This document shows positions 4,810-60,153 of a stretch of DNA of 64,000 nucleotides, piece after piece. The notes beneath the pieces were generated by a model that searched no databases, was not told the DNA's origin, and was given only the letters and a program-made list of their open reading frames with translations. A program made the translations under genes and the position numbers. This stretch comes from Chara braunii (lineage: Eukaryota; Plantae; Charophyceae), in assembly GCA_003427395.1 (NCBI GenBank), contig BFEA01000010.1, forward strand, positions 5,321,946 through 5,385,945, written 5' to 3'. Position 1 is the first letter of the stretch. Every line of letters begins with the position of its first letter.

Positions 4810-4854
<45 letters not shown>

Positions 4855-7022: not shown

Positions 7023-10002
7023 TTTGGTGACTTACCTGCCACCTGGATCTCTCTTGAACGGTTAAGAGAAAGAAGGAGAAATGAAGGGTGGCAAGGGAAA
7101 AGTGTTGTTGAGTTGGATATTTTTATGCGGTTTCTCTTTCTGACATTGGTATGCAGTGGGCAGCTGCAATGGGCCAATAAATTTGTCAACCTTTGGGATG
7201 AGTCTCTAAGAAGTATTGATGTGTGTGGGTGGAATAGGCAGTGTGTGTATGTGTTACTGTCTCCCTGGTTTAAGGCAACTTATATCGGTTCTACTACTAG
7301 GCCGCTAAAGGTCAGATGGGATGAGCATGTTAGGAGATCCATGCAATCAGTAGACGGTAGGAACCACAAACTTAGGAGATGGTTCCAAAGAAAGAATTGG
7401 TCTAGCTACGTTGCTATCCCGATTGCCTTCCCGCCTGCAGACGAGATACGGGAAGTTGAGGAGGCACTGATCTCCAGGTGGTCACCAGTCCTTAATTGCG
7501 TTAGAAAGAAGAAGAAAACTCCCGACCGGCGTAAGAGACGGAGGGAAAGGAGGACTTTCTTAAGGACTATTGGTCGGAGGGAGGAAGCGATGAGCACGAA
7601 CAGGACGTTCGTATGCTGGGACACGTCTCATATATCTCTCACAATCCATGAACCATGGAACCCTTCCTCCCCTTCTTTTTCAATTATCAAGACTCTGAAC
7701 AAATTAGCAGACGATGAGATCCTGCATGTCAATTTGATGAGCACTGGAGGTTGTTCTTTTTTTGACTCTTGGGGAAGGATCCACAGATTATTTGGATGGT
7801 CTATTGTGAAATTTTTGAATAAGAAATGTCTTTTGAAAAATTTGAAGCACGAATTTCTGCAAGGCGGAATTTTTCACATTTTGAGACTGAGACGGAGAAC
7901 GAGCACGACTGTTTTGCGTCGTGATATATTAGCCTCTCTTCTCCAGGTCCCTAGCACTAGGCGAAGTCTCTACAAATCTAACTTACATCACCTAGTAAAG
8001 CTTTATAGTTCAATAGAGACTTTCCACAAGGATAAGTCCCCCATCATTTTGAAGGGAGTGGTAGGAAGGGCACTTACGTCCGTATGCGGTTTCCGTTGTT
8101 TGGCTCTAACGGTTGTAAAAATTACCTTTGACGATTAGATTCGAAAGTCACGGATCAATGATTTGACCAAGTTGGTGATTAGGAGACACTGCAATGATAA
8201 ATGGCTCGCCGACTTTCTGATTTCTAGGCTCAGAATAATATGGACCAAGAATAGGTTTGTTGCCGACATATTACATAACCATAGACTTATGGCTAAGCAG
8301 CCCACGACCATCTGTTCGTGTGCTAAGAAGGACCTCGACTTCCCTAGAAATATTGAAGGACATGTGGCCTTTAGATTCTCTGAACTTCCGGATCTTCCCA
8401 AGTGCTTAAGCAATTCGAAAAATGTTCTACCCCCTTCTAGATCTCAATCTGTTGGGAGGATTAAACGAGCGTTGTCCGAGGGCTTGTCACATATTCCAAG
8501 CACGGATGGGTGGGTTGGTACTTCTATGATGATCCTTTCATGTTTTGGTAACAAAATGGGAAGCATTACAGTAAAAAAGGAAGCGGTCTTTCACAGGAGG
8601 GAAAAACTGGAGGGCCTGGTAGTGTCACCCATCGACCACAATATTGGTGACTCGTATGTTTGTTGCCCCGTCATATATCATGATGCCCTTGGTAAGTTGT
8701 TTTGGGGCAATGAGGGTTTTGAGGTGGAAAGTAGAGGGGAACACGAAGTTTAGACTGAGTGTGCGGAAGGATACCTTCGGATTCGGGCACAGAAGCTGGC
8801 CCCATGGAATAAAAGAGGGTTTTTGAGATCAGTCTACGGGATTCCCAAACACAAAGATATGACAAGGCGGAGGCCTATTGCACCTTCCTTCTCAGATCCT
8901 AGCATTCGCGCATGCAGGCTAGTGTCCAAAGCTATCAACGGTCTCATTTGGCGTGTTCCGGAGTCCTCCCATTTCAATCCGAAAAGCACCGATCTCTTGA
9001 AGAAGTGTATTGTTCGTCTAAACCAAAGATTAAGTACACTAAAGGATGGTATGATATTGTCTGCGAGTTTCGACATCAAGGAGATGTTTGCGAAACTCCC
9101 GCATGATGCCATTTTGAGCGTTGTGGAGTGATGCGATTTTTTAATGCAGAAAGGACACAACTCAATCAGAGTAAATAGAACTGGTAAAGGGACTGTGCTG
9201 GGAAAAACATTTGGTGAGCAAGGATTGTGTCGGGTAAAATTCTCTGAGATTATTGAATTTACTAATTATGACCTTAATAATACCTTCTCTAAAGTCCTTA
9301 ATTTAATCATTAGACAGAAAATTGGCATTCCCATGGGGAAGACTTCTAGTCCGGCCCTTGCCTTTCTCCTCTGTGCCCACTATGAGTTTACCTTCCTCAA
9401 CTCTTTGGGTAACGACCGCTGATTGATCCAGGGTCTCAGACTGGTTGACGACGTAGCTCTCTTTATTATTTTACCAGATAAAACCGAGTATTCTCTTGAG
9501 AAAGCTAGGAGTTTATACCACCTTTTTCTTTCCATCTACGATAAGAACCTGAACGTGGTACGAACTGACGATAGGGATGAACGATGGAAATTTTTGGGAT
9601 GTAGAGTAGAATGTCAGACCTCCCCTCCCGCTGTGAGATGTGAGGCAACCATTAAGAATCAAGAGTACATCTGGAGCGAGAGAGGAATGATTTTTCTGTC
9701 ATCACAGGACTTTTGGTCCTTCGGACCAAAGAGCCAAAAAGTGGGATTGATCAAATGCCACATGAACAGGGTTTTAACCCACTCCTCTGGTAACCCACTC
9801 CTCAGACTCCAGACGAGTGGGTTTGTTTTTGCTTTCGTTAAGGAGAGACCTAAGGTTTAAAGGGTTCCCTAAGGTTTTGTTTTTCAAAGCATCTGAGGAG
9901 TTTCCTGGGAAAAACAAAAACTGCTGGAAAGGCTGGGTTAGAATTATATCCGAGGGTCTGTTAGGAGGACAAAGATGCAATTTTAACATAAGACAAGCGT
10001 AG
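7023..10002 (+). pseudogene. PLE-A ORF2: GIY-YIG endonuclease + reverse transcriptase; four in-frame stops and a terminal frameshift
   Basis: GIY-YIG: CVYVLLSPWFKATYIGSTTRPLKVRWDEH...EEALI...LN. Then CSC..GHV, PIDHN, YGIPKHK, RPIAP, FDIKEMF, GIPMGKTSSP, LRLVDD, FLG. ORFs starting at 7113, 8163, 8823, 9144 and 9423 share one frame. Confidence 0.92.
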
Positions 10003-10500
10003 CATGGTCTGTTAGGAGGTTAGGGATACAATTTTGACAAAAGGCTAGCGCGACGTGGTCTAACACGCAGCACCAGAGGACAAGACTTTACGAACGACAG
10101 GGGACTTACGAACAAAATGATGCCACAGGATATCACACTGGCATATAAAATCCCGTATCATGAATGCCAATAAAGATCCTGCATGCGCCGTCTTCGGTCC
10201 GACTTGGGTACCAGCACGTGCGCTGCTCCACCATTTTCACCATACACGAGTTCTGTAGGATACCTGTGGCATCTACCTCATACCCCCACTCGCAATCTCC
10301 CTCCTCGACCATGGCATCTGCTCTGAGTTCTCTCTTTCCGCCATTATTTTCCGCCTTACCTTTTCCTTCAGTCTGTCTGCCTACCTTCTCCCCTGTTGCT
10401 ACCTCGGGTGTCTTCCCGCCCGAACTATGGCAACTACACGACTACCATTCTGACCTTCCCATTCTCGCTGATGATCTATGTTCCGCTTTCTCTCTCTCTT

Positions 10501-10556
<56 letters not shown>

Positions 10557-10954
10557 GCCCACTCTCTCTCTGACGTACAGACACACACGAAACCCCCCAT
10601 TTTTTTTCCGTTATGAGATGTTGGTTGGATACTCAGATCTATATATGACGGGGGTAAGAGGACTAGGTAGCGCAATTCCCCTTATGATGGCTGCGACGGC
10701 GATGCAACCGGAACATGTCGGGAACTCTCGCTGTGTTGCTCTTGGTTTTTACGATTTATGTTAACGGAGCAAACTTTTTCTTGCGCTACCCAGGTGTCAT
10801 TTCTTCTTCCTTATCTTCAACTATCCATTCGCCTCCCCTTCTCTCCATCACTACATTCGCCCTTGCTCATCGTGTGTCTCTGTGCTATGGCGATTCTCTT
10901 CCTCATAATGGCTTTGGAGCTTTGAGTCGTAGCTTTAAGACTCACATTTCGCTC
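9821..10954 (+). repeat. PLE-A 3' pseudo-LTR
   Basis: Diverged direct repeat of 4147-5258. Confidence 0.93.
10676..10724 (+). ncRNA. Hammerhead ribozyme, degenerate copy
   Basis: TTCCC-CTTATGA-TGGCTGCGACGGCGATGCAACC-GGAAC-ATGTC-GGGAA: core substitutions (CTT for CTG, GGAA for GAAA), palindromic stem III ACATGT, GUC triplet. Confidence 0.75.
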
Positions 10955-19640: not shown

Positions 19641-20620
19641 CCCTGTTTTCGGTCATAAAAAATATAAATTTAAAAATAATCTTAAAATAATCTCGGCTCA
19701 ACTAAGAATGAATCCCCTCTCAGCCCCTCTCCCCCCAAAATAGCAGAATTAGATACTCTTCCTTCATACGGATCCTGCTATACTACATACTCCCTTTAGA
19801 CAACCCAATAATGCAAGGATCTTCTTAATTTGAAAGTTGGATAAAGCAATAATAATAATAAAAATAACAATAAAAAATATTTAAAATATAAACTCACAAT
19901 TCTCATATCCTTTTTAATTTATACTTATACAAAAACCAATTTACTTCACAAAGAAATAATACGTACGATAAAAAATGCCTGCCAATTTTATAATTACCCC
20001 GAACATCACGACACTAACAAGTAGAACCAAAAAATACATGAACAGCCACGATTCAATAGGCCAATATAATCCCTAAGTATCCTAGTTACTAACAATAGGG
20101 ATCGCAGACCCAACAAACATTTTTCTGTCAATACAACAACACACACATAACTAAGCCCAAGCTGCACATAACACTGCATCAACCTGAACCTGCTCCTTAG
20201 TCAGACCTAGCACTATAGATTCCTCCCAACTGCTAACCTTTACTATAGCAAATCTCCCTCCAAGAATGTCCTCACAATAAGATCCCATAACACGGAAACT
20301 TAAGAAACACAAGACCTATGAGCTATCCAACCCCCTGAAAAAACCATCCCTACCAACACCGATTAACGATTACCCCCACATACAAAATAAAACAACAATA
20401 ACAACACAACAGACTACACATGAATAAGTAATTTTTTAATACGCCATATTAACATTAAACCAGTAACTCGCCTTTTAATTAAAATCTCTCCAAAACCCCT
20501 GACCAATCAAAAACCACCCCCTTCTACACAAACATCACATCCTAACCCACACGTTTGTCCATACCCCCTTTTTTTTTAAGAAAAAACACCATGTACTAAC
20601 AATGCGCTCTAATCCGTCAC

Positions 20621-23450
20621 ATGCAAGATGAATCAGAAGCCAACAAGGGATGGCATCACGAGCTGGCTGAGAAAGCCCAGTTGTTCATCCACCTCACACC
20701 CCTAAGCGTGCATTCGCAGACTGCCATGCTAGCCCTCCCGGAGCAAGTACTTAATCAAGTACATGAAACCAGCAACGCGCAAGCCCCCTTCCTCATTGAG
20801 AACCTGCACTTCTCAGATTGGGCGATCATTGTTGCCAAGTGGCAAACACTCAGAGGAGAGGAGGGACCCATCATTCAAACTTATGTCAAGGACATTGTCG
20901 CCATTCTCAAGCAAGCAGCACTGCAGAACCGGGAAATGGACAAGATCGTCGCAAAAACGGAGAAGGTCATCCTTGACTTGTATGGCTTCAGCTCTGTGCA
21001 TCTGAATGCCACAGGTGATGTCAACACCACTGACAACACTGACGAGCACAGACTACAAGTCATCGCACACCTCAACCCTTCACAAGCCGAAAAAGATTGG
21101 TATTTGAAGAGGCGGGCGGAGCGACAGCAACAAGCAGCCCAGCCTGCTGTCGCCACGCCCACCCCACGCAAAACCAACTTCTTCAGAATGGCGTCAGATG
21201 CACCATTCATACCAGTCCAAACACCCAGGTGGATTGAAAGCATCAGCAACAGATATGACAACAGGCTCTGGATGGTTGACTCCTTCAATCACACTGCCCC
21301 CATCACCATCCAAGCATATGCATCATTGGCTAACCTGTCGGAAGCGGATCTTGCCGAATGCAGAGAAGAGGCCCAAAAAGCCATCATCCGCAGAACAGCA
21401 ATCGACTCCAACTTCCCGATCCTCGGACCTCTTGACAGCTCCAAATGTCCCAACTGCCACCCACTGCTCCACCAGAAGGCGGTGCAGAAGCCTACTGCCG
21501 AGCTCCATGAGTTCAAGAAACTATGGAACTCCGGTAGACCTTATCTGAAGTGCAATTGCCCCATGCATGGAGGTGTGATCACATGGTTTGATCACATGCT
21601 ATGGTTCTACATAGCAAACCTCGATATCTTTGAGGCTGATGTTCCCCCTGATATGATGAGGATGATGGAACTTACTGACAAACTGCAGAATGAATGGAAA
21701 AAACCTGTTAAGCTGCAAGTCACCTTCCTCTACATGCGCATGCACATGATGAACCTGACGCATCTGCTGGTTGCTAACCCTCAATCCACCACTAACCAAC
21801 TTGCGGATAGAGAACCATACAGGGAAATGCCGCTGGCCAAGAAATTCTTGGCTACTCTGCTGCCTGCTGCACACCAAACCCAAGACCCTCCACCTTCACT
21901 CACCAAGCGCAAGAACCACCCAACACCTGACATCATCCAATGCAGTCGCAACAGGCAACCCACCAACACGCTCACCACCCCAACCCATGTCCCTTCACAC
22001 ACACCCATACAACCAATAGCCCACATTGAACCCACCCATGCACCTGCAAACTCCGCCCTCCCTAACAACACGCACACTCACCATGCTGCACAACCGCCAC
22101 CACTGACTGCACAACCACAACATACTACCCCTACCATTGCACGCACACCCTCCCACCCAATGCCCAGCATAGCACTGCACAATACATGAAGAGCAAAAAG
22201 AAACAACACTGCCCAAACCACAAAAAGATTGCAAAAGGGCAGATGGCAGAAACGCAAGGAAAAGCTCATGGCAGCAAGAAGGGCGCAGCTGCAACAGCAG
22301 CCAAACAACGCACAGCAAGCCCCGCATCAGCCACCTCTCCAAACCACCAACCTGCGCAGCACAAATGCACAGCAACCAAATCAACACGAACACCTGCAAG
22401 CATCGCACCCACAACCCCGCAACTCCCAACAGCCCACTGCACTGACAACACGCGATCCTCAGCAACCCATCAGCTCACAGCCTCAAACATCACAGCATAA
22501 TCTGCAGGCCCAATAGTTCCTGCAAACTGTTCTTGCAACAGCACAGCAACTCCCCGCACCTGCACCCGCCAACACCCGATCTTCACCGGCACCCGCACTG
22601 TCACAGAACGTACCACGGTCCACAAGCTGGCTTCCCCCCATCCACCAATTCCTCGCACACCACGCCCAACAACAGGCAAATCGATCAACATCCCCCCCTC
22701 CGCAAGGTTCCCGGCGTCACAACCCCATTGTCCTTGGTTCCCCATCCCCTGACAAACCCCCCAGAGCGCACAACGACATCAGTTTACTTCTCCAGCAGTA
22801 TGATGTCGAGTGCTCGCTAATTGATGCAAACCTTGACGACAGCTACTCGACTAACGTAGTCTAGGAAACCCCTGCGCCACAAACCACTAACAAAAACACC
22901 AGGAGGAACCTTGTCAGCGACTACAGCTGCAACCCACTGTCACTCACTGATCTCTGAATCTACGCAGATACCCATCGCTCATGACATGGCTTTGCGGCTC
23001 TGAGAGACTATATAAGACGTCATGGCCAATACCCAGGAGGACAACCCTCTTCCACGATTGCATGGGATGCGAGTGTGCCGACAATACAGACCTGGCGACT
23101 ACAGGAGCAGCAGCAACAAGAAAAAGAGACCTCCAACCAGCAAGCACTCCCAAGACCCACAGAAGATCCTACTGAATGACCAAGGGGCCTGCTACCACTG
23201 CAATGCCTTTTAAAGATTCAGTAACCTCCAGACTTCAGGCGATGATTCAGTCTAGCAACATAGCTCAACAAGCACAGCCTCGTTGCAAGCTAAGCTAGCC
23301 CCCACTCCAAGTACGAACATGTTTAGCAAGTTCCAGGATAAGAATAGCTCACATGCCAGCTATGGTCTGACTCGACTGTTCCTCTCGGTCATCCCTGAGC
23401 AAGCAGAAGTCTCCCTCTTAGACCAGAAAGTGCATGACGGTATTCGGTAG
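20621..23450 (+). pseudogene. PLE-B ORF1 body: 522-aa open segment with CPNC/CNCPMH motifs, followed by a Pro/Thr/Gln-rich linker and a stop-disrupted continuation
   Basis: ORF 20621-22189; 22229-22516 is in the same frame. A TACTAAC branch point lies at 20594, and a further acceptor TACGCAG| at ~22967. Confidence 0.65.
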
Positions 23451-25098
23451 GATAAACTTCAACCCCTGAACTCTTACACCTCCCCAATTTCTTATTTATT
23501 ATCATCATTATTTTTAATAATTATTCAGCTGGTTCCATGTAATAATCGCCTCCGTGTAAAATTCTACCACTTGATTGGCCAAATCTCAACTGGTTCTTCA
23601 GAAATCGGCAGACTGAATCCCAAATCTGACTTCACCCTGAAGAAGCTTCTGGCCCCAAAATAAAACGTGGAAACTCCGCCCCGAATGTTGCTTGAGTTTT
23701 AAATAAATATACAAGGACCATGGTTCGACAGATGGCCCAGGCGCCCGAACAGAAGGATATTCATCTCTGATCTGTGTCATATTGAATGATATCCGTATGT
23801 TTATTTTTACTTTTTATTTTATTAATTTTTCGTGTACTCGCATGCTAACCTCCCTGCCCTTTGCCTGAATGTGCTCATTAGCAGAGAACACCCTTCATAT
23901 AACCCCCCACTCTACACAGTGAAGTCCTCATACCCCGGCCTCCATGCTCCTTCCAGCAATAGACGTCTCCCAGACCTTCCTGACTCTAATGCTCTCCCGA
24001 ACGCCCTCTGTCACCCTTCCACCACACCTCTTCCTCAACCATCCCTGCATACACTCTGTAGAAGTATCCCCAACCACACACTCGCACACACATCTTCCTA
24101 TGCCATAAATCCGTCCATCGGCCTCAGCCGGGAACCTGAAAATTACGTGCCTACATTCTTACATATCCATCCATTGCCCCCCTCACCAACTGCAAACTAA
24201 ACATAGCTATCACTACATAACAGCAATATCCCTAGGCTACCATTAGATAATAAAATAAGTAGATCATTACAATAATGCTGATACCTAGGAACAACCACAC
24301 CACTACACCATCTACCTACTATTCGAGGTCTGAGCAAGGAAAGTCAGTCCCTGATAATAGACTACGGAGTGAGGAATGGAATAGAATAGAGGGTGTGACC
24401 TTGAATGTACTTATCCATTTGATAACTGTTTATGTTAAGACATCTGCTTTCCTGACAATTGCCAATAGTAGCTCCTGAATCCCTTTCTTAAGACTAAAGC
24501 TGATTGTTTCAGAAGACCTTATGGCCAACTAGGATAGCCACCGACATGTACGAAGTAGACCTTTTTCACTCACCTTTTTCCTCTCTCCTGCTCCTCCCCT
24601 CTTGCCAAAAACAACACATGACCCCAAATGCCCCACCTACATTCCATATCCTTCTTACCTCCTCCCACCCAACCAACCGTTTATTCACGACTGTACAACC
24701 CCACCCTTGTTCCTCCTTCTAAACCCCCCCCATGCATAAAGCTGGCGCAAACCATCTCTACGGCACCTCTCCTTCCCAGCAATCCCCCCACCCCGCAAGC
24801 CTTTAACTTGCCAAACTTTTTCTACCAAGAAATCTCTCTGCACATTCTTACTGCCTCAACCCCTTGCTCTACGCACACCCTTCGACCTTTCCTCTTGCCT
24901 ACTCAATGGACCCTGCCCTCTATCTAATGTTTGTTCCTGCGCACACACTCCCTCTGAAAAAAAAAAACCAGAAGAACCCCCCTCCCCCACAATCAGTAAT
25001 TGAATTCCTGTACAGCACCAATAAAAACAACCATATACACAGGCATTAATGGGTTACATAAAAAACCTAGCAACTAACCCCGAAACTTTTGCATGCAG

Positions 25099-27246
25099 GT
25101 ACCCCACTGAAGACTCCAACGTCTACCACATGGACGACTTGGCTGACGCAATCACAAGGAACAAACCAAACACATAATACATCTGCACTACCATAACAGG
25201 CTCTTTGAAGGAATCAAACCAAGAACACTATTCCAAACACTCATCAAAAAACACATTCCTCAAACACTTAACTCTCTCGATCATTTCACGTTTGGATGGA
25301 CATATGACAATCACATGGCACGAGCACTATACAAACCAGCAACAGTTTTTCATAACTTTGAACTAAATAAATGGTATGAAGAACAAAAGGACAAGTGTTA
25401 CTGCCAACAGCACCGGTTTGAACAATTTACCAAGACCGCAGCCGAAGGACTCATGCCAGATCATATGCCCCCACATGTCATCACCATGAACATGGGTATC
25501 TTCACAAACCCCCAACTCAGGACGATGATTGAAGCAGGAATGAACCACATACCCCCAACACAAAACAACCCTCAATCAATCCACCATGAACGCCACCGAG
25601 CATGGGACGAAGTAATAAAAAAACTCAGATCAGAACATGCAATCCAGCAACAACAAGTAGACGCGGCCACACGAGAATTACATGAGATTTTAACAAACAA
25701 TCTAAAACGATTCCCAAAGAACAACGCTACTAGTATACACAACCATGCCATACACAAACAAATAGAATATATGACCCACAACTTCTACATAACCGGAGTT
25801 GATAAAGCACCCAACACACCCACTGTCTGCTGCATAAATCTACTCAGATTCCTGGCGCTTCAACGCCTCTCAGGACCAGACTTCACACCCACTCAACAAA
25901 GAAAAGGTGAACTCATATACTTCCTCACTCAAAAACTCACTACACGTTTTTCAATGATTCCCATTGGCAAACCAGATATGCCCTACCTCTTCGCCACATA
26001 CAAGAACCACAAAAACAACTTCCGATGGCTTACAAATGCTGCTGACGTACTCCTCTCACCACTTGCAGATGCATGCTCTAAAATCCTAAAAAAACTTCAA
26101 GAACCCATCCAAGAACACTGTGGATAGCTCACTGAACTCACATTGCAAAAAACAGGACACACAGTACCATTCTGGTGGATAATTGATTCCATAGCAGACT
26201 ACATATATAATATCCCCAACAAGGTACACAACCTATTTACAGCCGACATAATCCGCTGTTATGAAATCATCACCATAGACCAATCACCAGATGGACTACC
26301 CAATGTCATACGCTTCTTCGTCAAACTGACATCTACTGCTGCCAAAAAAACATACGGCACCAATGCTACACTACACTATGCATACAGAACAAATCAAGAG
26401 CCACACACAATAGAATGCTCATGGTCTGCACACCCTGACCAAACCAAAACTAAATTTTCAGCCAAAGACATAATACAAATGAACACATGGCTTGTCAACA
26501 ACGCTCACACATCGCTTGGGGATCACACATGGAGACAAACCCTTGGCATACCCATGGGTGTTAGCTGCTCCCCCATATGGTGCAACCTGTACTTCTTCAT
26601 GTTCGAATATAAATTTATGAAGAAACTCACACACAACAGAAACCAGCACCTCCTACCACTCTTTGCCCACACTTTTAGATACTTTGATGACCTACATACA
26701 ATCAATAACAACCAAATCACAAAATTCCCGAACCCAAACATCACAAGCCCCAGAAGCACATACTATATATACCCACTAAAATATGTAACAATAAACGACC
26801 AAACAACATACACCCCCACCATAGGTCACGAACCCATTGGAACAGAATGCAACTTCCTAAATGTAACCATCAAAGTCACCAATGCGCAAGAAGTACTATA
26901 CTCCACCCACAAATTCGATAAAAAAAACCTTCTCAACTTCAATATCACCAGACTCCTCAAATACAACTCAAACAAACCAATAATGCAATCAATAAAAATA
27001 TTAATCCCACAAATAGTCACTATAATGACTATTGAAAATAACAGCATGAATGCAGCCACACAAATTCTCAAACTAATAGACATAATGACTCAAAATGACT
27101 TTCCATCAAGCAGATGCCTGTGCCTAACAATTGACATCCTAAAACATCATGATCAATACCAACCATTCAGATGCTCAACTCAACAAACACTTGATCTCTT
27201 AAATGAACAAATTAGTCAACAACGTGTGTGTGGCCAGTCAAACTGA
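25099..27246 (+). pseudogene. PLE-B reverse transcriptase (Naiad/Chlamys-type); one internal TAG at 26125; no GIY-YIG seen
   Basis: CYC...HVIT...NPQLR...G.NH.P, VDKAPN, PYLFATYKNHK, FRWLT, ADIIRCY, QTLGIPMGVSCSP, RYFDD, FLN. ORFs starting at 25315 and 26143 share a frame. Acceptor TTTTGCATGCAG| at 25098. Confidence 0.92.
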
Positions 27247-29675: not shown

Positions 29676-30799
29676 GTGTGTCTCTCGTATCACTCACAAC
29701 CTCGTTCCCCAACTCACAGATGCCACATGCACCCAAGGACCACCATGCGCCCCATCCAGCGTACAGCAACGCAGCTCGGCTATGGTTGCCTGCTCCTTCC
29801 AGCTCGCCCGTGAGCGCTTGAGCCTGACCAGCGTTAGCGCAGCATGCAGCCAGTGCCCGAATGTGCAATGCGTAGGCAAACCCTTCTCTATATCGAAGTG
29901 GCCTGCTGTTGCATGCGGTATGGTACTGGGCCTTGACCCAGAAGCTTCTGGTAGGGCCCACGAGGCTGACCCTCTGTCCGAAGAAAACAGGCCCAGGGCC
30001 TGTGGTGGTTACCAGCACCCAACCGCCCTCAGCCTTTGTTCGGTCCACTTTGTATATCAGGCCCAGGACCTGCCTCAGTTACATGCAATGAAAGGCAGTC
30101 TGAGCCTGGGCACTTCCAACCAACTGGCGCTGCGCAACTGCCTGAATTTCCCCAGTTGCGTGGTGACCCCAAAATGACCTGTAGGCCTCGGTCGTGCCTG
30201 CCTTCACTTAGGGCAACCAACTGTGTGGAAAATAGGCCATGTAGGGCATATCGAGGCCCTGTGCCTCACAAATTGGTGGTCGAAGTTTACAATTGACGAT
30301 TTTGTTCTGTACTCATATAACCATCTAAATTAGTCTTCAGATTACATCTGGTAAATTTTCTGACCTACTTTCTGTCTCAAATTCCCAAAGAACAATTCTA
30401 GTTGGGCATTTTGATTCGTAAAGTTTTTATACTTGCTTGCAGGAAATTCATAAGTATACTCTGATGTTGATTTTCAAAAAACCCATCGAAAGTCCTATTT
30501 GGATATCCTATTCGTAAATGCTAATAATAATTCATATACATTTTCTAAATTTCACCGTAGATCAATTTTCTAAATTGTCATGATTCTATTTTCTAATTTG
30601 TCATGATTCGATTTTCTAATTTGTCAATGATTCGTGATGAATTCTGCCTAGTCTAATGATCTTGGTTACTTTGATGATTTTGTTTTAAAAACTTTCAAAC
30701 TTTGACGTGATTTTCCATGTTCCAATTAGTGTTTTCCGATAAGGCTTCTCTCATTGGAGACTGATAGCAAATCTTCTTAGGTGTGCATGTTGCTGTTAT

Positions 30800-32460
30800 A
30801 ATTATGGATCTGCGGTTTTTCAATGCCAAAACGACGCTGGTAGATGTTGGGGTGTTGCCCTGTAACCTGCGAAGCAGGAGCATGAGGCCTGGTAGAGAGA
30901 TCTAGGGATGCTTAGGGGCGGGCATCTCACGAAATAATCAAGGATTGATGCTTGGAGGATGTCGGTCGGAGCTGGGGTGAGTTGTGTTGCCCTGTAACCT
31001 AGCGGTGGCGGTGTGAGGCTGGGCAGACTCAGGCAGAGAGTATGACTGCGTTGGCGAGCCTGAGTAGGGTTGTTATAGTCTTCTTGACTTTTTTGCAAAT
31101 TGTCAACTAGGTATTTTTTAGCCAAAAAACATACGATTAAGGGAAGCAGATTATTCGCACGGACGGGTGGGAAGTTCGTAGGGGTGTAACATGGGAAGGG
31201 CCTTAGTCTTCGTCAATAGGTCAGAAGGACGTGGTTGGAACGACGCAGGCCGGTGCTGGAGCGTTGCTCTGTAGCCTGGGGGAGCGTGAGGCTTGGGGAG
31301 CTCTGTCGAGGGAGGAAGGCAGAACCACCACGTTCGACGCAGCCGTTGTTGGGGTTTTATTCCTATCACCTCCGGGCGTGCGGCTAATGGGAGTTGTCGA
31401 GGGAGGAAGGCACTCCTTGCCGTCTACACCAGGCTGGTCGGTAATGGGGCATGGTGATACCCTGTAACCCTAGCATAGGGGGTTATGAGACCAACCGCGT
31501 TTAGGTTCGAGGACTGATCACGGGGACTTCGTTTTTCTCCAATTCTTGCGTGGGAAGTTTGCTAGTCGGTGGTTTCGGTTCGGATTTTTTGCTTTCAATT
31601 AGTTGTATGTCACTCATGTCCTATCTCGTAAAAAAAAAAAAAAAAACAACGGGCGATGTGTTCGGATATGGCTATCCTCTAGAGGTTGTGATTGTTCTCG
31701 GTGGTTGTGGTAGAACGCTTTTAGGCTCTTGGGACTCCTTGCAATTTCCTTGAGGCGATTTTTAATGTTGTTTTATTCATGGACCTGCGGTTGTTCGATG
31801 CCAGAACGACGCTGGCTGGTGCTGGGGGGTTGACGCTGTAACTTGTTGACAGCAGGAGCTTGAGGGCTGGTAGAGAGATCAGGGAATGCCTAAGGGGGGC
31901 ATTTCACGGGACAATCAAGGTCTCCTATCGAAGAAGATGCTGGCCGGAGCCGGGGTGAGTTGCCCCGCCCTGTAACCTATAGCGGGGGTGAGAGGCTTGG
32001 TAGAGCTTGGTAGGGAATAAGACAGTGTCTGAGGACTTCGAGGGTGTTAGGACCCTGTGGCGCTTTAGAGTGTTTGAAGACAATTTCTGGGATTTTCGCT
32101 GGTGGATAGTCTCCCAAATTTACCTCAAATAGCATTGATTTTTGTTAAAAAAAAAGAGAGAATGTTTTAGGATACTGGGGACTTCTAGCAACTTGCTTTA
32201 GGCTATTTGATACTGATACGTTCATGGATCTGCGGTTCTTTGATGCCAGAACGACGCTGGCCGGTGCTGGGGTGTTGCCCTGTAACCTGCTGATTGCAAG
32301 AGCGTGAGGCCTGGTAGAGAGATTTGGGGATGCTTTCATTCCAAGGGACAACCAAGGGTAGCTGTTGGGACGACGCTGGCCGGACCTGGGGCGAGTCGTG
32401 TTGCTCTGTAACCTAGCCAGGTGGGGTTGTGAGGCCTGGGAGAGCTCGACAGGGAATACG
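30800..32460. repeat. Higher-order array of a ~70-nt motif, 8 degenerate copies
   Basis: ACGACGCTGGCCGG(T/A)GCTGGGG…TTGCCCTGTAACCT…GTGAGGCCTGG.AGAG at about 30831, 30958, 31240, 31426, 31806, 31936, 32251 and 32370. Confidence 0.85.
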
Positions 32461-32628
32461 ACAGTGTTGGACAGTTTTAGAGAGTTTTGTTTGGGAGTCT
32501 AGGGGTTCTGAGCATTGGAAAAGAGGTGGGTCGTCATTCATAGTTTTTTAACCTCTCCTTTAATTCTCTTGAATTTCTTCAATAGTTCTCAGATTGATTC
32601 TCAGCCGAAGCCAGGTAATGGCCCCGGN

Positions 32629-32721
32629 TTCTTCTTCTTCTTCTTCTTCTTCTTCTTCTTCTTCTTCTTCTTCTTCTTCTTCTTCTTCTTCTTCTTCTTC
32701 TTCTCCTTCTTCTTCTTCTTC
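32629..32721. repeat. (TTC)n microsatellite
   Basis: Directly visible. Confidence 0.95.
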
Positions 32722-32959
32722 TTTGTCTTATCAACACCGTCGACTGAGATCAACCCTTCCCTTATCTTCGTTATCTATATTAGGACGGCGGCAGGCTCGT
32801 TCATTCTCCCCACCTCCTGGTCCCCCTTCCTCTCGGCGTCGTATTGATCCTAAACTGCCTTGTTCATTGTCTGACCGACAACCTGCTTTGGTACGTCGAC
32901 GACGTTCTTCAATTAAATGCCGACCACGCGAAATTAGACCAGGCCTTCCAGTGGTGACT

Positions 32960-33817
32960 GATTCGGATTTGCGAGCAGATCTACCAAACATTTGTGGCCT
33001 GACAGCCACGAATGTTTGTCTGCAACCTTATCAGCGTCAAGGTTATACTGTATCTCAATTTCTCACAATTGCTTATCAGCGTGACGCTGTTGAAAATGAG
33101 TTGTTGTATGACTGTAATGGTCTACCTCCTGAGGATAGTAATTATACTACCACAGGAGGCTTTACTATAAATGTCTTACAGTCAGCATTTCACGGTCGCC
33201 ACCTTCTCATGCCTTATGGGACGCCAGGCGAGGACCTTAATGCCCGTCCTCATATTTCTGCATGCATTTTGCACAAACCCGGGCACTATATGGCAGTCAT
33301 TCGTGCAGCTGCCCAGTGGGAACTGTGGGATGGTAGGACGGTGATTCATGTTATTGTCAACATAAATGAATTCTTGCGAGGTTTGTCGAATCATACACTG
33401 TTCTGGATTGTTGGGCGTCACTCGTGCGACATTTGTTGAGATAGAAATGTGGTGCCTCTTGGTTGTGGATTGCATTATCTATGTCAGCACCATTATCAAT
33501 CCATCGCGACTGCCGCCGTATGTGTGGAAGGGTGTCTAACATTTCCTCATTGTGCACATCCCTATCATCCAGATGTACGTTGTCATTTCTGTTCCCAAAT
33601 ACGCTATCAGAACTGCATGATGTCGCACTGTGACGAACGTCCTGCTGTTTTCTTGACATGTGGGCAACATGTCCTCTGTCGGGATTGTTTCGATGGGATG
33701 GTTCGTGCTAGCCGTCAGGCTGAATGCTGTACTAGTGCAACTCTCCTTGGGTATCCCTGTGAACATCCCCGTCATCCTCACCGTCGTTGTCCTATCTACC
33801 GAGGGGGTGACAGATAA
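32960..33817 (+). pseudogene. Josephin-like deubiquitinase domain fused to two RING-like zinc fingers; one in-frame TGA at 33437
   Basis: NICGLTATNVCLQ…YTVSQFLTIAYQRDAVE…SNYTTTGGFTINVLQSAF…SACILHKPGHYMAVIRAAAQWELWD…FLRGL parallels ataxin-3 SLCAQHCLNNLLQ…FSPVELSSIAHQLDEEE…GNMDDSGFFSIQVISNAL…SFICNYKEHWFTVRKLGKQWFNLN…FLAQL. It continues with CDIC…CGLHYLCQHH…CHFC and C..HC…CGQHVLCRDC…CPIY. Confidence 0.75.
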
Positions 33818-33896
33818 AAAAAAAACCCGAGTAAAAGGAGGGCAAGCCAAGCATGACGACCAATGAGCAGGGGGAACAGGAGGACAAGCTGGTCCC

Positions 33897-47700: not shown

Positions 47701-50700
47701 AACTTTTACGTGTATCCAAAACAACGACTCTGCCAGACTATCCAAATCTTGAATTGATCTAATTCTGGCATCAGAGGAGTTGGAAAGGGGGCTCTCGATG
47801 ACGACAATACTACCGTCAAACTCATACCCCGGTTTAGATCATAGGATGTGTTGATCATGTGCATGGTGGTATGGAATTTTCGCAAACGACCAGACCAGGG
47901 GGCCAGCTATTATAAACTAAATATCTCCCTACTCAAAACCAATTCCTTCCAGAAGTATCTAAAGCAAGCGTGAGACTTCCGGAGAGATCATCGCCCTCAG
48001 CAAGACTCACAAAATGATACAAATTACCTAGTTCAACAATGGTCTGTTCTTTATGGCCCAAAAAAGCAATGAGTACTCTAAATACTTAGTCGCTCAGAGG
48101 TACCAGCAAAAAGTCACAATCATGCAAAATCTAGTGAATGCGGCATAGGAGCAAAATTCACAAAATTTACAAAATTCGCAAGAGTAAGAGCAAATTGCAG
48201 CGTTACAAACCCGTATACAAGAACTTAAGGACCAACTTTTCAAACACGCATAATATTGATAGCAAGGAGCCCAAACAAGGGCAAGACTATCTAGATTTCT
48301 GACTGAAGGAGCGATGGACTCTCACTTCTTCAGTTTGGCTAAAACGCGTGCACAAAGAACCACGATTGAAATTCTTTATGAACCAACTGCTAGAGATTCA
48401 GACCTGGCTATTACCACAGCTCGTTGCTCCAAGATAATATACGATTTTTACAAAGATTTTTTACTTCGCATATTGACAAATCGGATGCATTACGACATGA
48501 TCGTCAAATCGAAGAATTTCTTGACCCCTTAAACAAATCATTAACACCCGAACAACGCAACACTTTAATAGAAGCCCCGCTCACTAAAAATGACATATGG
48601 ACCGCCCTCCTGCAAATGAAGGAGGAAAAAGTCCCCGGAGTAGATGAATTTCTTAAAGAATTTTGGGAAACCACATGGGATTTCATGAGTCAGGACGTTA
48701 TGGAATTCTATAACGAAGTATGGCTCACGAGGGAGATGGGAGAAAGGGTGGGCCAAAGAATATTAACCCTCTTATATAAAAAAGGGGACAAAATGAATAT
48801 CAGGAATTACAGACCCATAACGCTCCTAACAGTCGTGTACAAAATGTTATCCAAAGCCTTGGCAAACCGGATGATCCCAGTTATGGACGACATCATCCAT
48901 CCCGATCAGACCGGCTTTATGGCAAATAGGAATATACAAGAAAATATTTTGTTGATCCATGAGGTCCTCCAACTTACGAGACACTCCCTACAAAACGCGA
49001 CTCTAATCTTCATTGACTTTGAAAAAGCCTATGACCATGTCACATGTGGACTGGTTGTTTTTGGACAAGTGTTGAACTTTGGGCCGGATTTCAGACGCTG
49101 GATACTTATACTCCATCAAAATGCTACTACCTGCGTTCAGGTCAATGAAAATCCCTCGCCACCCCTACACTTAGAATGATCGGTTCGTCAAGGGGACCCT
49201 ATCGCTCCCTTCCTCTTCCTGGTCATTATGAAGGCCCTAGCCGCCAACCTTCAGGCCAACAAAAATATCACTAAAATTCGCGTCACACACATCACAGAAA
49301 ATGCAATCCCGGTATGTTCACTATTTGTGGATGACCTTACAATCATGGTAGAGGTCACCCGCCGTAACATGGAGGACATCCAACAGATGATGGAAAATTT
49401 TGTCAAGGTTCCTGACATGACGGTTAATTGGGGGTCTAAAACACAAGGATGGTGGATCCACTACCAAGGGGGACGTCCTCCAGAATCACCACGCATTGCA
49501 TGGATGCCACTAGAAACCCCAATAAGAATTCTTGGGATATCCATGACTGCCGAAGGACGCCCACCAATCAACAACAAATGGATCAGCACCTCGGCCCAGC
49601 ACAAACTCGACAATTGGAGAAACAAACACATATCCCTGTTCGGTTGAGCCTTAGTTCTTAACAATGTCATCTTCGCAACACTTTGGTACAAATCCTTACT
49701 GTGACCATTGAGCAAAGCGGCTCTAAGGAGGTTAAGAAAAAAGGCAGCGGCCTTCTTGTAGAAGGGGGATGAAGAGCAAACCAACGTAATAAGCCGCGTG
49801 GCCTAGGACTCAATTATCCAGCTAAAGGCAGGGGGTGGTCTGGGAATACTAGATTCGTCCACACAAGTGCAGAAACTGCTCATTCAATGAATAAAGAAAC
49901 TTATATTTGCCCCCCAAAGCCCGTAGTGTGTCCTCGCTTTGGAACATCTGGTCCGACCGACCCCGACAACTTCCCATACGGTCCATCCGCTAACCTGGTT
50001 GGCGGACCGTTTTTTGACGATTCCACGCGAACTCCCACATGGAAGGGAAGGGTCAAAAGAAGGGGGACGGACGCTGGATAATTTTTGGCCATCCTTGCTG
50101 AAAACCTGACGCAAACTCCCGCTCCCAGACCGGACCCACCCCAACCGGCGGGAGGAAGTCCATCGTCAACCCCTCTTCGGTAACAGATAGGTGACGGACA
50201 CGAGTGGTTGCGCTATGACGAGCTCATCCCCACCCTGGAAGAACTGGGTTAAGCATGGAGTGCTTAGGGTGGGGGACCTCAGGGATAGTGAAAGGCAAGA
50301 ATGGAAAACAGGGGACCAATTGCGAGCATCGTTGCGGTACTACCACCATGCAGAGGGGCGATTAGAAGACCCTATTGAGGCTATCCCACTAGACTGGTAC
50401 CTAATCCTCAAACGAGGCCCTACCTTGAAAGAAGGGGATTGGGTTGCAGACACAGGGACCCCTCTGAGGATCGGCTTGATCCATATGGTTTCACCCCAAA
50501 TAGTTCTGGTCGAATACTATGCTATCACCAGAACCGGCACCCTCCAAGGGGACAGACCACCCTTCGAAGGGAGAGATATAACATCGTTGTGCCGAGTGAG
50601 AGTTCTAGAAGAGAACGGACAAAGGGTGGCATTCCAGCCCGACAAACCAATCTAGGACTTGGCTCTGGACCCAGTAGAATGGATCTGGCAGCCCCCCCAA

Positions 50701-56338: not shown

Positions 56339-57720
56339 CTAATTGGTCGGTATCACTGTCATCGTCCCTCGGCCTTTTTTTTCTCCTAGGCGTCTTTGGC
56401 AAGGAAGGTTTTCGAACCTTGTATCCCTTCTTAAGTGGTCGTGAAGAGGATCCTTTCCTTTCTCTTTTACGTCGTCTCCAAACGTCCCCCTCCATCGGAA
56501 GAGTTTGAGGCGAGCCCCAGCGATAGGATCCCGTAACCTAGTCCCATCTAATTCGGCAAGAACATAAGCTCCTCCATCCAGTCTCTTTAGGACCCGATAC
56601 GACCCCATCCGCCAGTTGGCTAGCTTCTTGCTCCAAGTCTTTTCTAACGATGAGTCGTACATCAGGATGAGGTCATTAGCTCCTATCGGTTTTTGTCGGA
56701 CCCGCAAATTTTTGTCCCACCTTTCCTTCCCTTTCATCCTCTCCTTCTCGATGTTCTTGCCCGCCTCGGTAAGTCCAGCGTCAAGATTTCGACTATTTGT
56801 TGTATCCTCACCTCCAACAACTCACTCCTTGTCATGTTGGTTTTCCACGAGACATTCATCCAAATGTCGATGTGGAATTCGATGGGCAGGGGGCAGTGTC
56901 TACCGAACCAAAGGGTGTAAGGGGGATAGCCCATGCTTGATTTGATTGTGATATTGTTGGCCGAAACGGCATAACGCAAGTACTTCGGCCATTGCTCCTC
57001 TCGCCCTTTGCACCACTTTGCTAAGGCGTCCACAAGCGTCTGGTGGCCTCTCTCAACCGGAGCATTGCTTTGCGGGTGATAAGCGGTGGTGTAAGCCACC
57101 TTAATCCCCGGCTTCTCAAGTATCGTCTTGACCTTTTGGCTTAGGAACTCGGACCCCCTATCCATGACTATCTTCTCGACACACCCGTACCTCGCGACGT
57201 ACTCTATGAGAAAATCACTCACCTCCTCAGCTGTCTTCTTCTTTATGGCTTTAGCTTCCACGAATCCCGTAAGGTCATCATGGGCATTAATGATGTACCG
57301 AAGCCCGTCGATTCCTTTGGGCATGGTTACCAAGTCAACGTGGACTTTCTCACCAGGAACGGTAGGGAGGGACGGTACAAGGGGCTCCTTATAGCGAACT
57401 GTCGCCCTTTTTTGACAGGCGTCACATGTCGAACAGTACTTTTCGACCTCTCCGTATTATCCATCCCACCAATACAGCCTGCGAACTTTATCAAACGTCC
57501 TTTTTACCCCTCAATGTCCCCCAACGACTCCGTCGTGCAACTCTTCTATGACTGCCTTCCGTTCTTCTCGATCGCAAGGGACTCTCATGGGGATTGCCAA
57601 CTTGGTGGGCCTCTTAAAGAGGTGACCCCCTCGTAGACAATACCTGAGCGCCTCCCTCTTGATTGTCTCGGTGCCTCCTTCCCTACCTGCTAGGTACAAC
57701 CTTATGTCGCGGTACTTCCC
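56339..57720 (-). pseudogene. Gypsy integrase
   Basis: ELHDGVVGGH zinc domain, DDLTGFVEA, VMDRGSEF, AYHPQSNAPVER, GYPPY, WRMGSYRV (GPY/F-like). Contains stops and a frameshift. Confidence 0.92.
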
Positions 57721-57761
57721 GTCATAAAGGTTAGCGAGGAACGTCCTTGGGCCTTCGTCTG

Positions 57762-58265
57762 CCTCTCGGATGGTTACTGCTAATTATGCCTTGTTAGCGG
57801 CGACTTGGATTATTTCATCCTTGGTCATCGATTGTGTCGCTTCCTCTAGTCTCGGANNNNNNNNNNNNNNNNNNNNNNNNNNNNNNNNNNNNNNNNNNNN
57901 NNNNNNNNNNNNNNNNNNNNNNNNNNNNNNNNNNNNNNNNNNNNNNNNNNNNNNNNNNNNNNNNNNNNNNNNNNNNNNNNNNNNNNNNNNNNNNNNNNNN
58001 NNNNNNNNNNNNNNNNNNNNNNNNNNNNNNNNNNNNNNNNNNNNNNNNNNNNNNNNNNNNNNNNNNNNNNNNNNNNNNNNNNNNNNNNNNNNNNNNNNNN
58101 NNNNNNNNNNNNNNNNNNNNNTGACCATCGATTGCTCTAGTCTCGGATAATCCTCCTCTCGGATGGTTACTGCTAATTGTGCCTTGTTAGCGGCGACTTG
58201 GATTATTCCATCCTTGGCCATCGATTGTGTCGCTTCCTCTAGTCTCGGATAATCCTCCTCTCAGA
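57762..58265 (-). repeat. ~105-bp coding tandem repeat in the RH-INT linker, spanning a gap
   Basis: The unit IREEDYPRLEEATQSM(A/T)KD(G/E)IIQVAANKA(Q/*)LAVT appears on both sides of the N-run. Confidence 0.7.
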
Positions 58266-59964
58266 TGGGAAGCCTGGACAAGCCGTCAGCGACCTGGTTT
58301 TTGGCCCCGGAGATCCGTTCGACCCTATAATCGTAGAGCCTAATGTGGATCATCCACCTTGCAATGGTTGGATCGGTAAGAGAGAAGTCCTTTTGGATAA
58401 CAGCCGCTACCGCGGTTGGGTCCACTCTCAGGAGGAACCGCCTCCCGTAGATGTAGTGCCTGAAGATTTTTAGACAATGCACTACCCCTAACACTTCTTT
58501 CTTGAATTGGCTATAGTTCCTGTCAGCGGGGTTCAACGCCCTACTCTCAAATCGCAGGGGTCTTTCTTTTCCATCTTGATCCTTTTGTGAAAGAAGCCCT
58601 CCTACAGAACACGGTTCTGCGTTCGTAGAAACTACAAACGGGCGGTTCTCCTCGTCGTCGAAGTACGGAATGCCCAAGACTTGTCCTCCCTCGCGGAATT
58701 CCTCCTTGAGAATCTCCATGGTTGCGGTCTGATTGTCTCCCCAGACCCAACCTTCAACTGTCCTAAGCAACTTTCTAAGGGGTTCCGCCTTCTCACTGTA
58801 GGCCTTTATAAAAATCCTCCAGTAGCCCACCAGGGCCACCACCCCTAGAAGTTGTCGCACCTCCGTGATCAATTTTAGCGGCGACGACCACGTCATTAAC
58901 TTTCTTAGTTTCTCGGGGTCGGGCCTCCATCCGTCCTTGTCACATATGAACCCTAGTATCTTGATTGAGGATACTGCCCAACGACTTTTTGTCCCACTCA
59001 CGGTGAGGTTCACATCGTCCAGTTTTAAGAGCACGCTCCTCACATCCATCATGTGATCTACTATGAATTTTCTGATCCCCGGAAAGACCTCCGTCTCAAC
59101 TTTTTCAACCGGCCCTTTGATAGGGAAGTCATCCAAGAAGACCTCCACCTTACCCGGAATGAACTCCTTGAAAACGGCTATTATGGCCTTCTGAAAAACG
59201 GCGACGTCGTTGGTCCATCCCAAAGGTACCACCATCATTTGCACCAACCCTAAGGGCGTGTGCATCGCGGTCATATGCCTATCCTTATAATCCAAACGGA
59301 TCTCGTCATATCCCTAGAAGAGGTCACAGATAGAATAGATGGATCGACCTGCCGACCCTTCTGCCAAGAGATCTGCTTCCGGTATTGATCCTACGTCCGT
59401 TATTGTAGTTGCGTTGGTCTTTCGGAGATCCTGAATCCACTGAAGCTTATTACTACCCCCTTTTCTAATGAAAAACCATTTGTTGGAGTAGGCGCTATCG
59501 CACGGCTCGGCCACGAAAGTCCAGATCTTTTCTTTTATAAAGGTCACAATCTCCTCCTTTTCCTTTTGGCCGTTCTTCCATAGGGGTCTATCTTTCCACG
59601 GAACGTGGGGGACAGTGTGGATTCTCGCTGGTTTGGCATACCGAGGGTCTATCCTTCCCCTTTCCGAATCATCGAAGGTTATTGCCTTGTCACAACCCCT
59701 CAAGACTGTGGCTATATACCCTTTTTCCTCGGGGGTGAGGTTCCCGTCCCCGATGTCCACCTTTGCCAACCTATCCGTCGTAATCCGTTGTCCCTCTGTT
59801 GCCTTCCGTCCTCGAATGATCTCTGCTATCTCCTCTTCCGATATCGTGGCTTCCCCTGTCCTGTCCCGGCTGATTGCGGCGGNTTTTNNTTTNACCGCCA
59901 CAGTTTTATGCTTCCTACCTCTGTCGGTTAGAGGGATTCCCCCAAAAAAGACAGCCTCACGCAC
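58261..59964 (-). pseudogene. Gypsy RT + RNase H
   Basis: QDLRKTN, SICDLF, VPLGWTN, VFLDD, ILGF, GYWRIFI, RPLRFESR, YSQFKKE, ADGLSR. In-frame TAG at 59314. Confidence 0.93.
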
Positions 59965-60153
59965 CCACCAAATTCCTCTCCTTCATCCTCCTTTTCGTAT
60001 CCGACTCCATTGATTATTATCCGGTCTCCAATCTCCTCGACTTCTACTCGATCGTTCGGGGGTTCCACCTCGGAAAAGGGCGACTCTTCTAGGCGAACCT
60101 GGCACACCCGTGACTGGACTTCTCTCCTCCTGGGAACACTGGTGCAGTTGCGC

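What the first reader, a model, noticed from the sequence alone, without database searches (positions are those of the whole stretch)
32960..33817. Josephin deubiquitinase fused to tandem RING-like fingers: a candidate ubiquitin-editing enzyme in TE-rich DNA
Seen: putative triad Cys (32993), His (33284) and Asp (33329), with the His-to-Asp spacing of 15 residues found in ataxin-3 (H119/N134), plus colinear Josephin motifs. The frame continues through one TGA into two internally duplicated RING-like repeats (CG.H.LC…C.HP.HP..RC). No introns are apparent, and an A-run follows the stop. Known: Josephins are normally stand-alone or carry UIMs; DUB+E3 fusions are rare (A20); some DNA transposons and viruses carry DUBs. 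Inferred: mobile-element or viral cargo that manipulates host ubiquitination. Caveats: the oxyanion Gln is absent, the start is unclear, and this copy is probably decayed (TGA; CPIY for CPIC).
Basis: partly seen in the sequence, partly recalled or inferred. Interest (0 to 1): 0.85.

Follow-up and report, generated by a model that had tools for sequence, protein, structure and literature searches.

The report
Decayed Penelope retroelement Josephin-RING tail
This is the broken tail end of one copy of a common algal jumping gene whose protein, as published in 2021, ends in a domain like a ubiquitin-removing enzyme; its previously 'unknown' zinc motifs are likely RING fingers, which would let the element both remove and add ubiquitin tags.

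Summary
One frame (32573-33817, +) carries a Josephin-like domain (C32993, H33284, D33329; Pfam E 2e-5, below cut-off), a TGA, and two homologous Cys/His repeats. It is not viral, Helitron or host-gene cargo. It is the 3' end of a Chlamys-type Penelope-like retroelement. Craig et al. 2021 (PMC8557442) describe Chlamys-1/-4/-6_cBra: endonuclease-RT ORFs ending in 'Josephin' plus an 'unknown C/H motif'. The window frame follows their published consensi motif by motif (compared by eye), at about 40% protein identity to their database relatives. Library hits join such Josephins to Penelope RT. The stretch is a high-copy repeat whose family RNA is likely sense-strand. Other copies read a sense codon at the TGA (37 of 45 RNA reads; all contig depth in 5 runs) and Cys in 'CPIY', so the fusion is real and this copy is decayed. 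New here: the unknown motif looks RING-like (sub-threshold Pfam, 9 of 10 PDB profile hits RING, likely linchpin Arg), though folding was inconclusive. Likely role: protecting the element's own protein from degradation, perhaps with E3 activity; untested. The scan met this family once before on other DNA. Interest is modest.

The parts
32628..32723 (.). Single N (32628) followed by a (TTC)n tract; left limit of the copy. Could be an insertion target, part of the Ser-rich linker, or an assembly join
   Evidence: read laying skipped 32629-32733 as repeat
32740..32974 (+). End of the Ser/Pro/Arg-rich linker between RT and Josephin; short motif PLSS.S.LGRR..RSFSPP also seen in the Chlamys-1 and -6_cBra consensi
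   Evidence: by-eye reading of supplement S6; repeat depth starts here
32975..33412 (+). Josephin-like domain, triad C32993/H33284/D33329; Asn at C-2; no Gln at C-5
33425..33595 (+). RING-like repeat 1 (His at ligand 6; inserted C..C....C.HP.HP segment), interrupted by the TGA
   Evidence: Pfam gives no RING hit for this repeat
33437..33439 (+). In-frame TGA, specific to this copy; other copies carry a sense codon
33614..33802 (+). RING-like repeat 2 (C3HC4-type order with ~30-residue insertion; last Cys is Tyr in this copy only; Arg follows)
33815..33825 (+). Stop codon and 10-A run; right limit of the copy. Other copies run on into an A-rich 3' region
   Evidence: depth falls to ~0 after 33818-33840 and loose ends of 50-97 letters in X3, X8

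Best explanation
The stretch is a decayed 3' fragment of a high-copy Chlamys-type Penelope-like retroelement whose single long protein ends in a Josephin-like domain and two likely RING fingers, and the Josephin domain would likely strip ubiquitin from the element's own protein to protect it from degradation. Shown: the triad, the repeats, high repeat depth, read-through in other copies, RNA from the family, and GIY-YIG-RT-Josephin in one natural protein (P0017). Taken from print: the Chlamys-1/-4/-6_cBra architecture. Inferred: that this family's RT lies upstream in full-length copies (about 0.9); that the Josephin is an active deubiquitinase acting on the retroelement particle (about 0.6); that repeat 2 binds E2~Ub and acts as an E3, tagging host restriction or silencing proteins while the DUB undoes self-ubiquitination (about 0.35-0.4). 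This copy itself is likely dead.
For: [quoted passage not shown] Their consensi, read by eye, show the same linker motif, Josephin motifs and paired repeats in the same order, ending CP.CR near the stop. hmmsearch of 1.84 billion proteins gave 16 hits: 4 of 16 carry RT core motifs (P0005, P0007, P0011, P0016), P0010 carries the post-RT region, and P0003/P0004 are named Chara braunii hypothetical proteins. P0017 (1282 aa) holds GIY-YIG (E 0.018), RT motifs and Josephin (38.6 bits). P0001 is 68% identical and runs through the stop position. At 33437, 37 of 45 raw RNA reads and all contig depth in 5 contig runs read a sense base. Summed contig depth is 393-89,347 across the element versus 10.7 in the right flank in run X2 (not a copy number). 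Catalytic Cys is kept in 10 of 13 rows of A3, and His and Asp/Asn together in 8 of 13. RING reading: five RING-clan Pfam families hit repeat 2 (E 0.007-0.7); 9 of 10 PDB hits of the repeat profile are RING proteins (best E 0.0015); 10 of 10 best Atlas family hits share one clan, RING (scores 0.88 or less). Transposon-borne DUBs are shown active in Helitrons (PMC9741609 passages).
Against: No RT or endonuclease adjoins this copy; the RT at 25147-27243 is only 27% identical to P0017 and belongs to another family. No protein or contig joining RT to this exact family was retrieved (0 of 1532 longer candidates; no loci). The match to the published consensi is by eye, not computed. The window's Josephin score is below Pfam's cut-off, and Gln at the oxyanion position occurs in 1 of the 10 Cys-bearing rows. 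All RING scores are below cut-off, repeat 1 and P0002 get no RING hit, the two-row profile A5 hit only rabphilin, and Atlas scores under 0.9 are leads only. The best PDB hit is arenavirus Z, a RING not known as an E3 (recalled). RT-Josephin relatives P0005, P0007, P0010 and P0017 lack the repeats, so the fingers are dispensable in related elements.
Confidence: 0.75

Rival explanations
1. Same element, but the RING-like repeats are non-catalytic zinc modules that bind protein, RNA or chromatin (as arenavirus Z or the PHD fingers of other Chlamys elements), and only the Josephin is an enzyme.
For: Top PDB hits are arenavirus Z RINGs with the same C-x2-H spacing. A ~30-residue insertion sits between ligands 6 and 7 and repeat 1 lacks the terminal Arg. 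Other Chlamys carry PHD or SAP accessory domains. The fold searches found no significant RING match.
Against: The last repeat ends CP.CR in P0002, P0009 and, by eye, all three published consensi, where RING E3s most often have a linchpin Arg (PMC12326332 section 6; its position right after the last Cys is recalled). RNF168 and cIAP RINGs also hit, weakly.
Confidence: 0.45
2. The Josephin is not a conventional DUB: it would act as a polyprotein-processing or Ubl protease, or relieve ribosome stalling on the long ORF.
For: The oxyanion Gln (ataxin-3 Q9, PMC4428445 passage) is absent and a conserved Asn sits at C-2 in 8 of 10 rows. A 2026 preprint links retrotransposon Josephin/OTU domains to stall rescue as a possibility (passages).
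Against: Best structural relatives by sequence are ataxin-3 and Josephin-2. Tested Helitron-borne papain-fold domains are DUBs.
Confidence: 0.2
3. A stand-alone DUB-E3 gene: a non-autonomous element, a retrocopied host gene or viral cargo.
For: No RT next to this copy, no introns, and an A-run after the stop.
Against: Homology extends into the post-RT linker of Chlamys-1/-6. The A-run lies inside an A-rich region that other copies continue past. No viral loci were found (0 confirmed of 51 pattern matches). RT-fused relatives exist.
Confidence: 0.08

Closest known systems
Chlamys-1_cBra, Chlamys-4_cBra and Chlamys-6_cBra Penelope-like elements (Craig et al. 2021, PMC8557442)
   Same: C-terminal linker, Josephin-like domain and Cys/His repeats in one ORF, same motif order; high copy; microsatellite-rich setting.
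   Different: The window's family is only about 37-42% identical in protein to database relatives of Chlamys-1 and -6 (P0002-P0004), so it is a further family. This copy lacks the endonuclease, RT and 3' UTR and has a stop. Chlamys-4 has four repeats by my by-eye reading. The paper calls the Cys/His motif unknown; here it reads as RING-like.
Dualen/RandI LINEs with a Josephin domain (Kojima and Fujiwara 2005; cited through, original not held)
   Same: Josephin-like protease fused to a retrotransposon RT, proposed to disrupt protein degradation.
   Different: A different RT class with APE/RLE endonucleases; the Josephin is N-terminal in the Haematococcus examples; no RING-like repeats are reported in the passages seen.
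Helitron VTD/OTU deubiquitinases (PMC9741609)
   Same: Transposon-borne cysteine DUBs, proposed to protect transposition proteins from the proteasome; activity shown for VTDs.
   Different: DNA transposons and a different DUB class.
Ataxin-3 / JOSD1-2 (Josephin DUBs) and A20 (DUB plus E3; recalled)
   Same: Cys-His-Asp/Asn triad and spacing; the idea of opposite ubiquitin activities in one chain.
   Different: No UIMs or polyQ, no Gln at the oxyanion position; A20 uses OTU plus A20-type zinc fingers, not Josephin plus RING.

Membership tests
Chlamys PLE, Josephin type (Chlamys-1/-4/-6_cBra) | C-terminal Josephin-like domain | tested here: met
   motifs colinear with the consensi by eye
Chlamys PLE, Josephin type (Chlamys-1/-4/-6_cBra) | Conserved Cys/His motif after the Josephin, in the same ORF | tested here: met
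Chlamys PLE, Josephin type (Chlamys-1/-4/-6_cBra) | N-terminal GIY-YIG, CxC motif and RT in the same ORF | tested here: inconclusive
   Not at this locus, which stops at (TTC)n and an N; present in relative P0017; no genome held
Chlamys PLE, Josephin type (Chlamys-1/-4/-6_cBra) | Dispersed high copy number | tested here: met
   1238 contigs laid in X1, 827 of them under 95% alike; depth far above the single-copy flank; not a true count
Chlamys PLE, Josephin type (Chlamys-1/-4/-6_cBra) | 5' truncation, pseudo-LTRs, (TA)n/(CA)n targets | tested here: inconclusive
   (TTC)n on the left and (CT)n(CA)n about 75 bases beyond the right end; the left junction is hidden by a skipped repeat and an N; no second copy in the window
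Intact autonomous Chlamys copy | Uninterrupted ORF and complete 3' end | tested here: not met
   TGA at 33437, Tyr for the last Cys, copy ends at the A-run; not filed as an intact element
Josephin deubiquitinases (PF02099) | Cys-His-Asn/Asp triad | tested here: met
Josephin deubiquitinases (PF02099) | Pfam gathering score of 26 bits | tested here: inconclusive
   Window 24.9 and P0001 25.2 fall short; relatives P0005, P0007, P0009, P0011, P0013, P0017 pass at 27-42
Josephin deubiquitinases (PF02099) | Oxyanion Gln five residues before the Cys | tested here: not met
   Asp in the window; Gln in 1 of 10 Cys-bearing rows; so filed as Josephin-like
Josephin deubiquitinases (PF02099) | Ubiquitin isopeptidase activity | not testable with these tools
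   needs a biochemical assay
RING-HC E3 ligases | Eight zinc ligands in C3HC4 order | tested here: inconclusive
   Order fits repeat 2 in other copies, with C-x2-H spacing and a ~30-residue insertion; repeat 1 has His at ligand 6
RING-HC E3 ligases | Pfam RING score above cut-off | tested here: not met
   best zf-RING_2 17.1 bits against 27.3, E 0.0068; so filed as RING-like
RING-HC E3 ligases | Cross-brace fold | tested here: inconclusive
   Model pLDDT 58; Foldseek rows RNF168 E 3.9 and RNF213 E 5.6; VIA best Z 3.0
RING-HC E3 ligases | Cationic linchpin residue after the last Cys | tested here: met
   Arg in repeat 2 of the window, P0002, P0009, P0018; absent in repeat 1 of the window, P0001, P0002; role, position recalled
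RING-HC E3 ligases | E2-dependent ubiquitin transfer | not testable with these tools
   needs a biochemical assay

The most novel reading that the evidence does not exclude
Josephin-type Chlamys retroelements carry a two-way ubiquitin-editing module, a Josephin DUB plus tandem insertion-bearing RING E3 fingers, fused to their reverse transcriptase. It would be a retrotransposon counterpart of A20 or of viral DUB/E3 pairs: it shields the element's own protein and destroys host defence factors.
Probability: 0.3. Interest if true: 0.7.

Novelty: new member of a known kind. Interest (0 to 1): 0.36.

Why it matters
The locus itself is a dead fragment of a described element type. What it adds is a candidate identity for the motif that Craig et al. 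left unknown. If it is a working RING E3, a eukaryotic retroelement carries both arms of ubiquitin editing on its RT, which is a direct and easily assayed lead on how transposons counter host protein-level defences. The family is transcribed with an open codon at the stop position, so natural intact domains should be obtainable. The divergent Josephin (no oxyanion Gln, conserved Asn at C-2) would also widen the known chemistry of that DUB class.

Tried and rejected
No whole genome was held, so copies could not be counted or extended. Word-based protein searches found only P0001 (1 of 919 candidates), nothing longer (0 of 1532) and two known hits with a profile (2 of 3882). No related loci were confirmed in metagenome contigs (0 of 137 pattern matches) or viral contigs (0 of 51). 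Single-sequence phmmer against PDB gave 0 hits. The PDB search with A3 (ataxin-3, E 1e-9) includes an ataxin-3-like row (P0014), so without it is the fair test. AlphaFold on the two-row full-length alignment failed (pLDDT 32) and was not searched. The repeat-2 model (pLDDT 58) gave no significant fold match, which is no evidence either way. The Atlas structure search had no TM of 0.5 or more. One 26-nt block shared by the three published 3' UTRs is absent from the window at up to 3 mismatches, a weak test given the divergence. Three DNA and three peptide motifs from the window were not found verbatim in the supplement; protein rows there are cut at 400 characters, so the C-termini could be read only from the DNA consensi. 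Selenocysteine or other recoding of the TGA was rejected because other copies have a sense base there. The RT at 25147-27243 was rejected as this copy's missing front (27% to P0017). No RNA holder was on record in the run index; added raw-read runs were laid instead. Kojima and Fujiwara 2005 was not held. No complex prediction was run.

Full report
Observation. The + strand frame 32573-33817 is open except for a TGA at 33437. Codons at 32993, 33284 and 33329 are Cys, His and Asp, with His-to-Asp spacing 15, as for ataxin-3 H119/N134 (PMC4428445, passages). Pfam finds Josephin at E 2e-5, 24.9 bits against a cut-off of 26. A profile of 8 family rows with no ataxin-3-like member hits ataxin-3-like 3o65 at E 5.9e-5. 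Two Cys/His repeats follow (33425-33595, 33614-33802); they are homologous, with 0 of 2000 shuffles reaching their score.

Surroundings. The window is eukaryotic, gap- and microsatellite-rich and full of retroelement debris: GIY-YIG at 7023-8135, RT at 26128-27243 and 48394-49176, and a gypsy-type gag-pol at 56.7-62.6 kb. No whole genome was held. Two hits are named Chara braunii, so the host is likely that alga or a close relative; this is inference.

It is a repeat, and the stop is private to this copy. I laid 8 of the 24 listed runs. In DNA run X1, 1238 contigs lie on 1.26 kb, 827 of them under 95% alike. In X2, summed depth is 393-89,347 over the element against 10.7 in the right flank, where one contig matches with no differences; the tool warns this is no copy number. 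Homology runs from about 32740 to the A-run at 33816-33825. At 33437, 6 of 9 (X21), 29 of 32 (X22) and 2 of 4 (X23) RNA reads show C, as does all contig depth in X1, X2, X3, X6 and X8 (14 contigs); what the other 8 reads show is not listed. P0001, 68% identical, reads through the position. At 33798, 14 of 14 and 76 of 77 reads and all depth in X1 and X3 give the Cys codon. T>C and A>G differences are the commonest classes (45 and 30 places in X23), as expected from methylation-driven decay of this copy (inference). The window's own T was not seen in any contig laid, so an assembly error cannot be excluded. The family is in oligo-dT RNA libraries, mostly with the first mate on the minus strand (678.7 against 70.3 in one X22 bin), which in most stranded libraries means sense RNA. 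Only 0 of 1104, 1 of 3767 and 2 of 2482 reads are 99% alike or more, so the RNA comes from other copies.

What the element is. Craig et al. 2021 (PMC8557442; section 9 read whole; supplement S1 rows) describe Chlamys Penelope-like elements in C. braunii with ~1,800-aa ORFs and a C-terminal extension with weak Josephin homology plus an unknown motif of conserved C and H: Chlamys-1, -4 and -6_cBra. I read four parts of the consensus file S6. By eye, the 3' parts of Chlamys-1 and -6 show, in order, the linker motif PLSS.S.LGRR..RS.SPP, N.CGL.ATN.CL, NYT..GGF...VL, PGHY.A, WELW[DN], two repeats with C.HP.HP-type segments and CP.CR shortly before the stop. The window shows the same series. Chlamys-4 appears to have four repeats. 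Independently, an HMM search of 1.84 billion proteins gave 16 hits. P0002-P0004 resemble Chlamys-6 and -1 and are 37-42% identical to the window, so the window's family is a further one. P0005, P0007, P0011 and P0016 carry RT core motifs, and P0017 holds GIY-YIG, RT and Josephin in one chain. P0006, P0008, P0015 and P0016 look like chimeric gene models; P0014 is ataxin-3-like. Against: no RT adjoins this copy, the nearby RT is another family, and the left end is hidden by (TTC)n and an N at 32628. On the right the copy stops at the A-run, while contigs in X3 and X8 continue for 50-97 letters, so it lacks its 3' UTR and the A-run need not be a poly(A) tail. An earlier scan note on another genome (e1-9095546) names the same family; I saw it after reaching this reading and did not test it.

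Are the repeats RINGs? Repeat 2 draws five RING-clan Pfam families, all below cut-off (best E 0.0068); repeat 1 and P0002 draw none. A six-row repeat profile gives 10 PDB hits, 9 of them RING proteins: arenavirus Z (E 0.0015, same C-x2-H spacing), RNF168 and cIAP (E 0.06-1.7). A two-row profile hit only rabphilin. The Atlas's ten best family hits for P0002 residues 60-197 share the RING clan, but scores are 0.88 or less and a third of shuffled proteins also give ten of ten. The ligand order is C3HC4 with about 30 extra residues holding further Cys and His between ligands 6 and 7. The last repeat ends in Arg, where RING E3s most often have a cationic linchpin (PMC12326332 section 6; the exact position is recalled). 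Folding was inconclusive. I rate RING fold at about 0.7 and E3 activity at about 0.35-0.4.

Mechanism. The most likely reading is that full-length elements make one GIY-YIG-RT-linker-Josephin-RING-RING protein. The Josephin would remove ubiquitin from that protein so that it survives to integrate, the role proposed for Dualen Josephins and for Helitron DUBs, whose activity was shown (PMC9741609, passages). The triad Cys is kept in 10 of 13 rows and His with Asp/Asn in 8 of 13; the oxyanion Gln is kept in 1 of 10, and an Asn at C-2 in 8 of 10 may stand in for it (inference). The fingers would either recruit E2~Ub against host factors or serve as binding modules. RT-Josephin relatives without them show that they are optional.

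Novelty. The architecture is in print. I found no paper calling the motif RING: the word occurs once in Craig et al., for a different motif; a search for Josephin + RING domain + retroelement + reverse transcriptase gave 0 papers; Chlamys + Penelope-like + Chara braunii gave only that paper; some searches were seen as listings, and the library lacks most subscription journals. Also seen in passages only: PMC6431247, PMC11167929 (not used), the bioRxiv version of Craig et al. and a 2026 preprint on 2A peptides. Kojima and Fujiwara 2005 was not available. Figure 6 of Craig et al. and Repbase entries were not visible and may already annotate the motif. Verdict: a decayed fragment of a new family of a known element type, with one testable new idea. 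Interest 0.36.

Noticed in passing
window 30788-32627: Degenerate repeated blocks (spacings about 120, 445, 566, 975) with no long ORF; the part laid (32300-32627) is itself very high in repeat depth and present in oligo-dT RNA, mostly one strand. Identity unknown.
   Followed up: partly
window 20600-27243: Decayed ORFs that by eye resemble the endonuclease-less PLE-X1_cBra type (N-terminal Cys motif region at 20600-22186; RT at 25147-27243), per supplement S6; RT is 27% identical to P0017.
   Followed up: partly
window 7023-9608: Decayed GIY-YIG plus RT element resembling Chlamys-2/-5_cBra by eye, flanked by a direct repeat of several hundred bases (4148-5258 and 9825-10954) that may be a pseudo-LTR.
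   Followed up: no
supplement S6 of PMC8557442: The 3' UTRs of Chlamys-1, -4 and -6_cBra share a conserved block of about 110 bases with apparent self-complementarity, a possible structured RNA; absent from this window.
   Followed up: no
P0005, P0007, P0010, P0011, P0017, P0020 (unnamed JGI/ENA/Logan sources): Chlamys-type RT-Josephin fusions without the tandem repeats, 24-35% identical to the window; they may extend the Josephin-type clade to other hosts. P0011 ends in a short C2HC-like finger.
   Followed up: partly
P0009, P0018 (Logan): A 310-aa protein with an N-terminal zinc-finger-like motif, a Josephin and a single RING-like repeat, with no RT in the called ORF; a possible stand-alone or internally started form.
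   Followed up: no
window 56737-62608 (minus strand): Gypsy-type gag, protease, RT, RNase H and integrase, broken by stops and gaps.
   Followed up: no
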